A program made the position numbers and the translations under genes. Below the pieces are notes generated by a model. That model was not told where the DNA came from. It saw only the letters and a program-made list of their open reading frames with translations, and did not search any database. This document shows, in pieces, positions 35,098 to 48,211 of a stretch of DNA of 64,000 nt. The stretch lies in NCBI RefSeq assembly GCF_009914755.1, contig NC_060943.1; one strand, given 5' to 3'. This DNA is from the human T2T-CHM13v2.0 reference genome, Homo sapiens. Numbering within the stretch: the stretch's first letter is position 1; every line of letters starts with the position of its first letter.

Positions 35098-35198
35098 ATG
35101 GACCTCCCGGACTCGGCCTCGAGGGTCTTCTGCGGCCGCATCCTGAGCATGGTGAACACAGATGATGTCAACGCCATCATCCTGGCCCAGAAGAACAT
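35098..35198 (+). CDS. KXD1: KXD1 first coding exon ([33 protein letters not shown]); BORC/BLOC-1-associated KxDL protein
   Basis: Acceptor tttcag|G at 35077, ATG at 35098 and donor AT|gtgagt. The four coding exons sum to 531 nt = 176 aa + stop. Confidence 0.95.
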
Positions 35199-35998
35199 GT
35201 GAGTGGCGGCTGGGGGACCTGAGCGTGGGAAGGAATCCACAGGCTGGCCAACATTCTTGTCTTGCCCGCCCCTACCCGGGGCCCACGCTGGTGATAAAAT
35301 GAAGGAAATGAGCAAATCTGTCGCTGGCTCCAAAGTAAATTCCTTCCCGGCCTGGAGGCGAGGCCTTGGCACAGGAAGCAGGGCTTTGGGGAGATTTTGC
35401 AGCTGCGGATGGCTTGGCGGGGGCCGCAGGGGCTCCTGTCCCGAGACCTGGGGTGGGAGAGTTGAAGGACCAGAGGGGGCCACATGCAGGTTTTTTTGTT
35501 TATTTGTTTCTTGTTTTTGAGACAGAGTTTTGCTCTTGTTGCCCAGGCTAGAGTGCAATGGTGTGACCTTGCCTCACTGCAACCTCCGCCTCCCGAGTTC
35601 AAGCGATTTCTCCTGCCTCAGCCCTCTGAGTAGCTGGGATTACAAGCATGTGCCACCATGCCCAGCTAATTTTTGTATTTTTAGTAGAGACGGGCTTTCA
35701 TCATGTTGGTCAGGCTGGTCTCGAACTCCTGACCTCAAGTGATCCACCCGCCTCGGCCTCCCGAAGTCCTGGGATTATAGGCCTGAGCCACTGTGCCTGG
35801 CCTTTATGCAGGTTTTATGCTGGTGCGCCTACTTCCTGGTGAAGGACTAGTCTCCCAGAGCCCAGGCTGTGTCTGCACAGTGCCCAGGGTCTCTTGGAGC
35901 GGACATAAAGGCCTCTTGTCCTCACTGGGGTTTGGTGCTGTGGCTGCTGAAACCTTGCCCTAATTCAGGCCTGCCCTGTGGGGAAGAAAGGCTAATAC

Positions 35999-36213
35999 CA
36001 AGCTTGTCCAACCCTCGGCCTGTCCAACCCTTTGAATGTGGGCCAACACAAATTCGTAAACTTTCTTAAAACATTACGAGATTTTTTTTGTGATTTTTTT
36101 CTTTTTCTTTCTTAACTCATCAGCTGTCGTTAGTGTTAGTGTATTTTATGTGTGGCCCAAGACAATTCTTCTTCCAATGTGGCCCAGGGAAATGAAAAGA
36201 CTGGACACCACTG
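35999..36213 (-). mobile_element. MER30-type hAT-Charlie DNA transposon (MITE)
   Basis: Termini caagcttgtccaa...tggacaccactg, internal 'cacaaattcgtaaactttcttaaaacatta', and flanking direct repeat GGCTAATAC (35990-35998, 36214-36222). Confidence 0.85.
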
Positions 36214-36384
36214 GGCTAATACAGTCTTGGAGTGGAAGCACAGCCTCCCGCAGCTTTGTTTTTGTGTCTCTGAGCCAGAGGCTCTTCCCAGCTGTCACGA
36301 CACAGTACAGACCTGATTTCCTTACCTTTTCTCCCAGACCCAGAGCAGCTCCGAGTCTCAATAGTACCTGTCTCTCTCCTGTGT

Positions 36385-39300
36385 CTTTTTTTTTTTTTTT
36401 TTGGGAGACAGAGTCTCACTCTGTCGCCCAGGCTGGAATGCAATAGCATAATTGCTGCTCACTACATCCTCTGCCTCCTGGGTCAAGTGATTCTCCTGCT
36501 TCAGCCTCCTGAGTCGCTGGGATTATAGGCATGCACCACCATGCCTGGCTGATTTTTTTTTTGTGACGGAGTCTCGCTCTCTCGCCAGGCTGGAGCACAG
36601 TGGCGCAATCTCAGCTCACTGCAACCTCTGCCTGCTGGGTTCAAGCGATTCTACTGCCTCAGCCTTCCAAGTAGCTGGGACTACAGGTGTGCGCCACCAC
36701 GGCCAGCTAATTTTTGTATTTTTAGTAGAGACGGGGTTTCACCACGTTGACCAGAATGGTCTCAATCTCTTGACTTCGTGATCCGCCCGCCTCAGCCTCC
36801 CAAAGTGCTGGGATTACAGGTGTGAGCCACCGTGCCTGGCCCTGATTTTTTTATTTTTAGAAGAGATGTGGTTTCACCATGTTGGCCAGACCTCAAGTGA
36901 TCCACCCTGCCTCAACCTCCTAAAGTGCTGGTCTCCTTTTTTTTGAGACATAGTTTCGCACTGTCACCCAGGCTGGAGTGCAGTGGCGCAATCTCAGGTC
37001 ACTGCTATGTCCGCCTCCCGGGTTCAAATGATTCTCCTGCCTCAGCCTCCCGAGTAGCTGGGATTACAGGCGCCCGCCACCATGCCCAGCCAATTTTTGT
37101 ATTTTTGGTAGAGACGCGGTTTTCCCATGTTGGCAAGGCTGGTCTCGAACTCCTGACCTCATGATCTGCCTGCCTTGACCTCCCAAAGCGCTGGAATTGC
37201 AGGCGTGAGCCCCCGTGCCCGGCTGGTCTCCTGTTTTTTTAGGTCAGATTCAGACCTGGCTCTGGGAAACTTCTAGACTGAGGGGAGACAAAGCCAGACA
37301 CAGACCCTCCTGGCCCTATGGTGTCAGGGCTGGGCCAGAGGAACAACCTGGGGCTAGTGGAATTAAAAGAGTCTGATTGGGCCAGGCACGATGGCTCACT
37401 CCTGTAATCCCAGCACTTTGGGAGGCCGAGGTGGGTGGATCACGAGGTCAGGAGATCGAGACCATCCTGGCTAACCTGGTGAAACCTCGTCTCTACTAAA
37501 AATACAAAAAATTAGCCAGGCATGGTGGCGGACGCCTGTAGTCCCAGCTATACTCGGGAGGCTGAGGCAGGAGAATGGTATGAACCTGGGAGATGGAGCT
37601 TGCAGTGAGCCGAGATCGCGCCACTGCACTCCAGCCTGGGTGACGAAGCAAGACTCTGTCTCAAAAAAAGTCTGACTGAATAGAGGTAGACAAGGCTACA
37701 TGAGAAGGACACACTTGAGTAGGGTTTTGAAGGTTGAATAGGAGTTTGCTAGGTGGCTCAAAGAGTAGGTAGAACTCTGCAGGACAAGGGAACAGCCCAT
37801 GCAAAGGTTGTGAAGCAGGCAAGGGCTTGGCATGAACAGTCGTCTGGGCCAGGTTGGGCAGGGCCCTGAAGCTGGGCAGTGAAGCTCATGCCCTCTCTCC
37901 ACCATCAGGCTGGACCGCTTTGAGAAGACCAATGAGATGCTGCTCAACTTCAACAACCTGTCCAGTGCCCGCCTGCAGCAGATGAGCGAACGCTTCCTGC
38001 ACCACACGAGGACCCTAGTAGAGATGAAACGGGACCTGGACAGCATCTTCCGCCGTATCAGGTGGGTGCTCAGTGCCACCCCAGGGCCCCAGCTGACCTC
38101 TGCCTCCACCTCCCCATCTGAGCCTCAGTTTCCTTCACATACCAGGGTAAAGGGAGATTTCTGTTTGTTTTACAAGGCTTCACTGCGCACTTAAGTGTCT
38201 GGGACAATTCCAACCCTGGGATAAAATCTTGACGTAAGTTTATTTACTGATTGATTAATTGATCGAGACAGAGTTTTTTTTTTTTTTTTGGAGACGGAGT
38301 CTCGCTCTGTTGCCCAGGCTGGAGTGCAGTGGCGCGACCTCAGCTCACTGCAAGCTCCGCTTCCCGGGCTCACGCCATTCTCCTGCCTCAGTCTCCGGAG
38401 TAGCTGGGATTACAGGTGCCTACCACCATGCCTGGAGAATTTTTTGTATTTTTAGTGGAGATGGGGTTTCACTGTGTTAGTAGCCAGGATGGTCTCGATC
38501 TCCTGACCTCGTGATCCAGCCGCCTTGGCCTCCCAAAGTGCTGGGATTACAGGCGTGAGCCACTGCGCCCGGACGAGACAGAGTCTTGATCTGTGGCCCT
38601 GGCTGGAGTGCAGTGGCGTGATCTTGGCTCACTGCAACCTCTGCCTCCTGGATTCAAGCGATTCTTGTGCTTCAGCCTTCTGAGTAGCTGGGTCTACAGA
38701 CATACTGTACCACACCCAGCTAATTTTTGTTGTTGTTGTTTTATTTTTGAGGTGGAGTCTTGCTCTGTCGCCCAGGCTGGAGTGCAGTGGTGCAATGTCA
38801 GCTCACTGCAACCTCCGCCTCCCAGGTTCAAGCGATTCTCCTGCTTCAGCCTCCTGAGTAGCTGGGACTACAGGCGCATGCTGCCACGCCCAGCTGATTT
38901 TTTGTATTTTAGTAGAGACGAGATTTCACCGTGTTGCCCAGGCTAGTCTCAAACTCCTGAGCTCCAGCACTCTGCCTGCCTCGGCCTCCTAAAGTGTTGG
39001 GATTACAGGTGTGAGCCTAATTTTTGTATTTTGTGTAATTTTTGTATTTTTTTAGTAGAGACAGGGTTTCCCCATGTTGGCCAGGCTCATCTCGAAGTCC
39101 TGGCCTCAGATGATCCATCCACCTCGACCTCCCAAAGTGCTGGGATTATAGGCATGAGCCATCATGCCCAGCCTTGCAGTTTATTTATTCTTAAAAAATG
39201 TAACACAGTGCGGCTGGGCGAGGTGGCCCATGCCTGTAATCCCAGCACTTTGGGAGGCCGAGGCAGGCGGATCACGAGGTCAGGAGATCGAGACCATCCT

Positions 39301-46929: not shown

Positions 46930-47612
46930 GACTGGGCACAGTGGCTCATGCCTGTAATCCCGGCACTTTGGGAGGCTTAGGCGGGTGGATCACCTGAGGT
47001 CAGGAGTTCAAGACCAGCCTGGACAACGTGGTGAAATCCCGTTTCTATTAAATACAAAAATCAGCTGGGTGCAGTGGCTCAGGCCTGTAATCCCAGCACT
47101 TCGGGAGGCTGAGGCGGGCAGATCACAAGGTCAAGAGATTGAGATCATCATGACCAACATGGTGAAATCCCATCTCTACTAAAAATACAAAAATTAGCTA
47201 GGCATGGTGGTGCGTGCCTGTAGTCCCAGCTACTCAGGAGGCTGAGGAAGGAGAATTGCTTGAACTCGGGAGACAAAAAAAAAAAAAGTCATAATGTGAA
47301 TTTTTTTATCACTGCAATAAGGAAATTAGTGTCACTTGTGGGAGCGACAAGAATTCAGTGTCCTTTTTTTGTGAGACAGAGTCTTACTCTGTCACCCAGG
47401 CTGGAGTGCAGTGACGCGATCTCACTGTGACCTCCGTCTCCCGGGTTCAAGCGATTCCCCTGCCTCAGCCTCCCGAGTAGCTGGGATTACAGGCACCCGC
47501 CACCACGCCCAGCTAATTTTTTTTGTATTTTTAGTAGAGACAGGGTTTCACTACGTTGGCCAGGCTGGTCTCTTAAAGTGCTAGGATTACAGGCGTGAGC
47601 CATGGTGCCCCG
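46930..47612. mobile_element. Closely spaced inverted Alus in UBA52 intron 3 (+ 46930-47288, - 47364-47612)
   Basis: Alu consensus in opposite orientations, ~75 nt apart. Confidence 0.9.
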
Positions 47613-47930
47613 CCTAGACTTCAGTGTCTGACCTTGCCTGAACCACTTAGAGGTCGGCTTCCATGTTAGAAACCCAGATGGATGCCTCAGTTGGCATGTG
47701 TCAGTCTCAGACTCCCCCCAGGGCTCGTGGTCAGTGCTGAGATGGAGATTTCCTGGGGCAGGCTGGCTGGGACAGTGTATCTTCCACACGTAGAACACTC
47801 GGGGGATCCCGACTTGGTGTCCCCATCACACTTGAGAAAGCAGCAGACTATAGGCCCTGGAGGGTCCTGCCCCTGTGACTGAGGAGCCAGGGCTGGGCTC
47901 AGTCGCCGTCCTTCTGGCTGTCTCCTGCAG

Positions 47931-48033
47931 AGTCCACCCTGCACCTGGTGTTGCGCCTGCGAGGTGGCATTATTGAGCCTTCTCTCCGCCAGCTTGCCCA
48001 GAAATACAACTGCGACAAGATGATCTGCCGCAA
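47931..48033 (+). CDS. UBA52: UBA52 exon 4: ubiquitin C-terminus (LRLRGG) and start of eL40 ([21 protein letters not shown])
   Basis: ctgcag|AG acceptor and AA|gtatgt donor. 103 nt. Confidence 0.99.
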
Positions 48034-48117
48034 GTATGTGTGCTCCGATGCTTGGGGGGCTGTGGGGGCTGCCGGAGTCGGGGTATGCCCTCACCCACCC
48101 CTCCTGTCTCTGTGCAG

Positions 48118-48211
48118 GTGCTATGCTCGCCTTCACCCTCGTGCTGTCAACTGCCGCAAGAAGAAGTGTGGTCACACCAACAACCTGCGTCCCAAGAAGA
48201 AGGTCAAATAA
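48118..48211 (+). CDS. UBA52: UBA52 exon 5: eL40 C-terminus [30 protein letters not shown]
   Basis: gtgcag|G acceptor and TAA ending at 48211. Total CDS 387 nt = 128 aa + stop. Confidence 0.99.

What the first reader, a model, noticed from the sequence alone, without database searches (positions are those of the whole stretch)
35098..48211. In-frame KXD1-UBA52 read-through: a predicted KxDL-ubiquitin-eL40 chimera that could yield a conjugatable KxDL-Ub modifier
Seen: KXD1 and UBA52 are tandem on the + strand, with only ~2.5 kb from the KXD1 AATAAA (42405) to the UBA52 start. KXD1 exons 2-4 give 301 coding nt (100 codons + C) and end at a consensus donor, GCC|GTAAGT (40236). UBA52 exon 2 begins with 8 untranslated nt (ACGCAAAC, 46354-46361) before the ATG. 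Joining them reads C|AC GCA AAC ATG = His-Ala-Asn-Met, in frame with no stop. His101 is the same residue the normal exon 4-5 junction makes. The product is 231 aa: the whole KxDL coiled-coil region, without the acidic tail, followed by ubiquitin-eL40. UBA52's own exon-1 donors look weak (CTG|GTTGGT, CGG|GTTCGC). Established: penultimate-exon to exon-2 joining is the usual pattern of read-through chimeras; Ub-eL40 is cleaved after Gly76; KXD1 is a BORC/BLOC-1-associated subunit. Inference: cleavage would release eL40 plus a 179-aa KxDL-Ub with a free C-terminal GG. It could be activated by E1 and conjugated, or could place a genetically encoded ubiquitin on BORC at lysosomes. I recall, without being able to verify it, mouse Kxd1 entries grouping with ubiquitin peptides in proteomics, which would fit a conserved fusion isoform.
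Basis: partly seen in the sequence, partly recalled or inferred. Interest (0 to 1): 0.85.

Follow-up and report, generated by a model that had tools for sequence, protein, structure and literature searches.

The report
KXD1-UBA52 read-through ubiquitin fusion
Two neighbouring human genes, KXD1 and UBA52, can be joined in frame into a lysosome-complex subunit carrying ubiquitin; the fusion is already a database entry in mouse and other vertebrates but is likely a rare read-through by-product, with no direct sign here that human cells make or use it.

Summary
KXD1 coding exons 2-4 (301 nt) join UBA52 exon 2 in frame to give 231 aa without a stop. The same protein is already in databases: a Pan entry is identical to the join, and 8 of 169 listed KxDL proteins go straight from KxDL to ubiquitin, from primates, rodents, ungulates, an elephant shrew and coelacanth. 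Mouse Kxd1 entries E9QNP0/E9Q4P0 contain ubiquitin. None of this shows expression or function. These are gene models, some visibly automated. All 17 mouse 'Kxd1' peptides seen are plain ubiquitin. No junction read or peptide was found, no human annotation exists in the table supplied, and 0 of 8 UBA52 retrocopies carry KXD1. The kept frame is explained by one lucky intron phase, a NAGNAG acceptor (8 or 11 nt) and Kozak context. If translated, cleavage and conjugation are very plausible. Verdict: an ordinary penultimate-exon to exon-2 read-through with an unusual product, not described in the papers searched. A selected KxDL-Ub modifier is not excluded (about 8%).

The parts
35098..35198 (+). 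KXD1 exon 2, coding part (101 nt)
37909..38061 (+). KXD1 exon 3 (153 nt), core of the KxDL domain
   Evidence: Pfam PF10241 E 1.6e-16
40190..40236 (+). KXD1 exon 4 (47 nt), penultimate exon; phase-1 donor that would be used in the chimera
41460..42436 (+). KXD1 last exon (76-residue acidic tail, 3' UTR, AATAAA at 42405); would have to be skipped
40237..46353 (+). Hypothetical chimeric intron, 6117 nt, holding 7 competing acceptor-like sites
44918..44948 (+). UBA52 exon 1 (pyrimidine-tract start); its tract ends in CAG at 44932 and looks like an acceptor; use of it would put ubiquitin out of frame
46354..46361 (+). 8 untranslated nt of UBA52 exon 2 that become the His-Ala-Asn linker; ancestrally preceded by a second acceptor 3 nt upstream
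46362..46464 (+). UBA52 exon 2 coding part (ubiquitin N-terminal half)
   Evidence: Pfam PF00240
46723..46809 (+). UBA52 exon 3
47931..48033 (+). UBA52 exon 4 (ubiquitin Gly-Gly and start of eL40)
48118..48211 (+). UBA52 exon 5 coding part; stop codon of the chimera lies in the last exon

Best explanation
KXD1 exon 4 and UBA52 exon 2 are in frame, and the join is likely made only at low level, when polymerase misses the KXD1 poly(A) site and the exons are cis-spliced; the product would be cleaved to eL40 plus KxDL-ubiquitin and is likely a tolerated by-product without a selected role. Shown: frame, sizes, database models. From established chemistry: the stop lies in the last exon, so the mRNA would escape decay; deubiquitinases would cut after Gly76; the 179-aa, 20.6-kDa KxDL-Ub would keep a free Gly-Gly, could be charged by E1 and could join BORC with ubiquitin at the outer tip of the rod. 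Inferred: the amount is tiny beside UBA52's own output, so it makes no measurable difference.
For: Frame and sizes. Penultimate-exon to second-exon joining is the typical read-through pattern (PMC13429570, passage). Gap of 2513 nt. Fused entries: 8 of 169 listed KxDL proteins direct, 3 more by longer routes; hamster and warthog entries carry NCBI isoform names; mouse E9QNP0/E9Q4P0. Neutral account of the kept frame: retrocopies show 11 nt in 7 of 8 and 8 nt in 1 of 8, a NAGNAG pair of the same phase; the last linker codon went from GAG (Glu) in all 8 retrocopies to AAC (Asn) in the human gene; linkers differ across species (HAN, HAE, PGAE, LDAK, TSAK). Other BLOC-1/BORC subunit genes sit in ordinary read-through loci (BLOC1S5-TXNDC5, EEF1E1-BLOC1S5, BLOC1S1-RDH5, all listed noncoding; PMC5793191, passages). 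[quoted passage not shown]
Against: No human junction evidence was found: no KXD1 or UBA52 row in the fusion tables of PMC6987184, no fused KXD1-UBA52 gene name in the rows shown from PMC8609283 (three files too large to read), none in the RefSeq table supplied. So even the low-level transcript is inferred for human. In the other direction, the same clean join appears in a coelacanth model, the join falls at the end of the conserved BORC helix, and the linker Ala is invariant in 8 of 8 direct models, which selection would also give.
Confidence: 0.58

Rival explanations
1. The fusion is an annotation echo. One mouse transcript model was carried to other genomes by protein-to-genome alignment or by gene predictors merging two close genes, and human cells make essentially none.
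For: The gorilla model has two extra residues (YV) that match the first 6 nt of UBA52 intron 4, a sign of automated alignment. Fukomys, Molossus, alligator and one hamster model join the genes by four different routes. The UniRef label of the Pan entry is n=2, Tax=Pan although it equals the human join, which implies no identical human entry. 0 of 8 UBA52 retrocopies carry KXD1 sequence and KXD1 exon 3 has no retrocopy. Seven acceptor-like sites compete; three tested routes are out of frame.
Against: Hamster and warthog entries have NCBI 'isoform X' names, a pipeline that usually leans on RNA-seq introns (recalled, not checked). Retrocopies sample only abundant germline mRNA, so 0 of 8 has little power. 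Overlapping or already-merged annotations make fusion callers drop such pairs (recalled).
Confidence: 0.27
2. The join is a conserved, selected isoform that makes a new ubiquitin-type modifier. KxDL-Ub would either display a non-removable ubiquitin on BORC, or be conjugated to proteins and recruit BLOC1S1-containing complexes to them.
For: Direct joins in primates, rodents, warthog, rhino, elephant shrew and coelacanth with 3- or 4-residue linkers. The kept part covers the stretch matching the C. elegans BORC chain (residues 14-105 of a bear KXD1 against 9tqb_E). BORC subunits point their C-termini outward and KxD1's is flexible (PMC12846789, passages), so ubiquitin would fit. UBB (6 nt) and UBC (3 nt) have a different phase, so the phase is specific to UBA52.
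Against: Only in-frame joins can appear in a protein database, so the sample is selected for the result. The phase is one historical event, not eight. Kozak positions -3 and -6 explain the open linker. The 76-residue tail that is lost is conserved from mammals to fishes. None of the teleost entries listed is fused, and 0 of 115 new distant KxDL representatives carry ubiquitin. All 17 mouse peptides are ubiquitin-internal, and the N-terminal one starts at Met1 rather than spanning the join.
Confidence: 0.08
3. Read-through matters at the RNA level, not through the protein: it would divert KXD1 transcripts from the tailed isoform or disturb the UBA52 promoter, or supply a little extra eL40.
For: The transcript must cross the CpG-rich UBA52 promoter (CpG observed/expected 0.90 at 44400-45300); three alternative routes tested are out of frame.
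Against: No expression data; no regulation shown.
Confidence: 0.07

Closest known systems
Read-through chimeric RNAs (cis-SAGe, conjoined genes, tracRNAs), e.g. BLOC1S1-RDH5, BLOC1S5-TXNDC5, RPL36A-HNRNPH2
   Same: Same strand, short gap, last exon of the upstream gene and first exon of the downstream gene skipped. Other BLOC-1/BORC and ribosomal-protein genes are in such loci.
   Different: In frame with the stop in the last exon; the downstream part is a self-releasing ubiquitin precursor; human transcript not shown.
Mouse Kxd1 entries E9QNP0/E9Q4P0 and Pan H2RFH8
   Same: H2RFH8 has 0 differences from the window-derived join; the mouse entries contain ubiquitin preceded by Asn.
   Different: No counterpart in the human RefSeq table supplied; the mouse sequences themselves were not retrieved.
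Ubiquitin precursors UBA52, RPS27A, UBB, UBC
   Same: Ubiquitin 100% identical, followed by eL40, cut after Gly76 by UCHL3, USP7 or USP9X (PMC4522658, abstract and discussion).
   Different: Ubiquitin is internal; 103 residues stay on Met1, with no Gly-Gly before it, so they would not be removed and Met1 linkage would be blocked (inference).
Engineered X-ubiquitin fusions (GFP-Ub, FLAG-UBA52)
   Same: An N-terminal partner on ubiquitin still allows cleavage and conjugation.
   Different: Here the partner is a natural helix that normally assembles into BORC and may be unstable alone (untested).

Membership tests
Read-through chimeric RNA (cis-SAGe) | Adjacent genes on the same strand, short distance | tested here: met
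   Both +; 2513 nt from poly(A) signal to UBA52 start; chimeric intron 6117 nt
Read-through chimeric RNA (cis-SAGe) | Canonical donor and acceptor at annotated exon ends, penultimate exon to exon 2 | tested here: met
   GT at 40237, CAG before 46354
Read-through chimeric RNA (cis-SAGe) | Junction present in human RNA | not testable with these tools
   No read data. Literature tables that could be read were negative; two searches gave no usable table
Read-through chimeric RNA (cis-SAGe) | Made from one precursor, not by trans-splicing or rearrangement | not testable with these tools
   Needs nascent RNA across 42436-44918
Ubiquitin precursor fusion | Intact 76-residue ubiquitin ending Gly-Gly before the extension | tested here: met
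   Residues 104-179, 100% identity in 11 of 11 fused entries
Ubiquitin precursor fusion | Ubiquitin at the N-terminus, released as free 76-residue ubiquitin | tested here: not met
   103 residues precede Met1 with no Gly-Gly site
Ubiquitin-like modifier (conjugated through C-terminal Gly) | Free C-terminal Gly-Gly after processing | tested here: inconclusive
   Site present; cleavage inferred from FLAG-UBA52-GFP, not shown for this protein
Ubiquitin-like modifier (conjugated through C-terminal Gly) | Endogenous conjugates detected | not testable with these tools
   Mouse diGly peptides under Kxd1 cannot be told from ordinary ubiquitin
Conserved functional fusion isoform | Frame kept across species beyond what the two separate genes explain | tested here: inconclusive
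   Kept in 8 direct models, but sample is selected for frame; NAGNAG and Kozak suffice
KxDL family (BORC subunit) | KxDL domain PF10241 retained | tested here: met
KxDL family (BORC subunit) | Assembles into BORC | not tested
   No model obtained; needs co-immunoprecipitation

The most novel reading that the evidence does not exclude
Since the common ancestor of coelacanth and mammals, KXD1-UBA52 read-through has made a fifth ubiquitin source whose product is a new modifier: a BORC helix permanently fixed to ubiquitin's Met1, able to put ubiquitin on the tip of BORC or to tag proteins with a handle for lysosome positioning.
Probability: 0.08. Interest if true: 0.8.

Novelty: new member of a known kind. 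Interest (0 to 1): 0.36.

Why it matters
If functional, it would be a natural ubiquitin with a permanent N-terminal targeting domain, linking ribosome supply, ubiquitin and lysosome positioning, and it would complicate UBA52 and KXD1 knockouts. Even if not, there is a practical point: because mouse Kxd1 database entries contain ubiquitin, 'Kxd1' hits in mouse proteomics can be ubiquitin under the wrong name (17 of 17 peptides in the one table read).

Tried and rejected
(junction region with 32 ubiquitin residues) was swamped by polyubiquitin and gave nothing; with a shorter ubiquitin part worked. Search for a fossil chimeric mRNA among retrocopies: negative. Search for KxDL-ubiquitin fusions in distant eukaryotes: only the best 150 of 678 hits were listed; 1 of 150 is fused (the mammalian P0047) and 0 of the 115 new ones. 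Literature: 9 papers hold both KXD1 and UBA52 (listing; one read by passage) and none announces a chimera in title or abstract start; no listed paper holds 'KXD1-UBA52', E9QNP0 or E9Q4P0 at the matching setting used, among the 40 of 1,594 shown; searches added no description. Supplements: PMC2953495 unreadable; PMC7038929 only 344 characters; PMC11128028 and PMC13429570 negative but small. No structure model of the fusion was obtained, so its fold and linker flexibility are untested. Rejected: 'weak UBA52 exon-1 donor' as a driver; mouse 'Kxd1' peptides as proof of the fusion protein; the RefSeq UBA52 exon at 36806-36819 as support for read-through.
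Full report
Observation. The window holds human KXD1 and UBA52 in tandem on the + strand. KXD1 coding exons 2-4 total 301 nt and end at a GT donor at 40236. UBA52 exon 2 starts at 46354, 8 nt before its ATG. The join translates to 231 aa with no stop; ubiquitin occupies 104-179 and eL40 follows. The poly(A) signal at 42405 lies 2513 nt before the UBA52 start, and the chimeric intron would be 6117 nt against 1223 nt for the normal KXD1 intron 4. The frame itself is weak evidence: joins to UBA52 exons 3 and 4 are in frame too, while joins from KXD1 exons 2 or 3 to UBA52 exon 2 are not.

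The protein is already in databases. A search with KXD1 exon 3 listed 120 of 343 hits and a junction-weighted search 120 of 165, 169 distinct proteins in all. Of these, 103 continue into the normal tail, 8 go straight to ubiquitin through 3-4 residues, 3 reach ubiquitin by longer routes, 25 have another tail and 30 lack the exon-4 end. The 8 are Pan (H2RFH8, 0 differences from the window-derived join), gorilla, warthog, black rhino, Chinese hamster, blind mole-rat, an elephant shrew (cluster of 15 members, not listed) and coelacanth. The linkers are HAN, HAE, PGAE, LDAK and TSAK. The longer routes are Fukomys, Molossus and alligator. No teleost entry listed is fused, and none of 115 new, more distant KxDL representatives carries ubiquitin (best 150 of 678 seen).

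The mouse recollection is right, but it does not show the protein. PMC13068346 lists mouse KXD1 under InterPro Ubiquitin_dom with UBB, UBC, RPS27A and UBA52 (table passage). In PMC7722268, supplement 7, entries E9QNP0 and E9Q4P0 (Kxd1) have 17 diGly peptides; 17 of 17 lie inside ubiquitin. The N-terminal peptide has Asn as the preceding database residue, as in the hamster linker, but the observed peptide starts at Met1, which is what ordinary ubiquitin gives. A diGly table is not designed to catch the junction peptide, so this is absence of proof, not disproof. PMC6497791 also reports E9Q4P0 as KXD1 (table passage); its peptides were not seen.

How independent are the models? Not very. The gorilla entry has two extra residues matching the first 6 nt of UBA52 intron 4, typical of alignment-driven models. 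That the Pan, gorilla, mole-rat and coelacanth entries come from one pipeline that can project a mouse protein, and that NCBI 'isoform X' models (hamster, warthog) usually rest on RNA-seq introns, is recalled, not checked. The Pan cluster label (n=2, Tax=Pan) implies no identical human entry. Only in-frame joins can show up in a protein search, so the sample is selected for the result.

Is the frame selected? UBA52 retrocopies in this genome record old mRNA. Of 33 matches to exon 2, 15 loci were compared and 8 keep the 5' UTR join. All 8 end exon 1 at the 44948 position; 7 of 8 have 11 nt before the ATG and 1 has 8 nt. So the ancestral acceptor was a NAGNAG pair, both in the same phase; the present human sequence has lost the upstream AG. 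This explains the 3- and 4-residue linkers in mammals. The last linker codon is GAG in all 8 retrocopies and AAC in the human gene, Glu to Asn, keeping the purine at -3. Stop codons start with T; the split codon starts with KXD1's C, and Kozak context favours G at -6 and a purine at -3, so the linker is open without selection on the fusion (inference). UBB has 6 nt and UBC 3 nt, so the phase is particular to UBA52, a single event with roughly one chance in three. None of the retrocopy loci matched KXD1 exons, and KXD1 exon 3 has no copy elsewhere; this test has little power for rare mRNA.

Competition. Between the donor and UBA52 exon 2 lie 7 acceptor-like sites by a simple rule, including the normal one at 41460 and the pyrimidine tract at the UBA52 start (18 of 20 pyrimidines, then CAG). 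Routes through 44933-44948, 44933-44970 or 45901-46021 put ubiquitin out of frame. The exon-1 donor at 44948 scores the same as the KXD1 exon-4 donor on a crude count, 6 of 9.

Human RNA evidence. None found. The fusion tables of PMC6987184 hold no KXD1, C19orf50 or UBA52 (gene-name columns confirmed). In PMC8609283 the rows shown name KXD1 and UBA52 separately; three large files could not be read and may bear on this. Supplements of PMC2953495 and PMC7038929, the most relevant catalogues, were not usable. Ten library searches turned up no paper describing the chimera; the library lacks most subscription papers, and most results were seen as listings only.

Mechanism if made. Joining the penultimate exon to exon 2 is the typical product of failed termination (PMC13429570, passage). 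The stop is in the last exon, so decay is not expected (established rule). UBA52 is cut after translation by UCHL3, USP7 or USP9X (PMC4522658, abstract and discussion). [quoted passage not shown] So eL40 (6.2 kDa) and KxDL-Ub (20.6 kDa) are the expected products. The kept part spans the region matching the C. elegans BORC chain 9tqb_E (14-105); BORC subunits point C-termini outward and KxD1's is flexible (PMC12846789, passages). Ubiquitin would therefore sit at the rod tip in place of a 76-residue acidic tail that is conserved to fishes. Whether the helix is stable alone, and whether it enters BORC, is untested.

Verdict. A real in-frame possibility, of a well-known kind, already modelled in other species and apparently never studied. 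Most likely a rare by-product (0.58), next an annotation echo with no human product (0.27), an RNA-level effect (0.07) or a selected modifier (0.08). It is cheap to test and the product would be unusual, which keeps interest at 0.36.

Noticed in passing
window 36806-36819 and 45655-45668: The 14-nt RefSeq UBA52 'exon' inside KXD1 intron 2 is identical to the 14 nt before the GC donor at 45668 (both Alu-like); probably reads from the GC donor mapped to a GT site upstream. It makes UBA52 appear to overlap KXD1, which may hide the pair from fusion callers.
   Followed up: partly
window 46331-46361; L002-L008, L028: UBA52 retrocopies show an ancestral tandem acceptor used mainly at the upstream AG (7 of 8); the human gene now has CTG at that place and a changed last UTR codon.
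   Followed up: yes
window 44918-44932: The pyrimidine tract at the UBA52 start ends in CAG and would look like a strong acceptor in any read-through RNA, giving out-of-frame mini-exons of 16 or 38 nt.
   Followed up: partly
window 41737 and 41558: The annotated KXD1 3' UTR donor at 41737 could join UBA52 exon 2 after the KXD1 stop (full KXD1, ubiquitin not in frame); a weak donor-like site at 41558 would give an in-frame 264-aa join.
   Followed up: no
PMC7722268 supplement 7; PMC6497791 Table 1; PMC13068346 Table 5: Mouse proteomics papers report 'Kxd1' from entries that contain ubiquitin; in the one peptide table read, all 17 peptides are ubiquitin, so such hits are likely mislabelled.
   Followed up: partly
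P0274, P0242, P0243: Coelacanth and alligator models imply that KXD1 has lain just upstream of UBA52 since before tetrapods; not checked in DNA.
   Followed up: no
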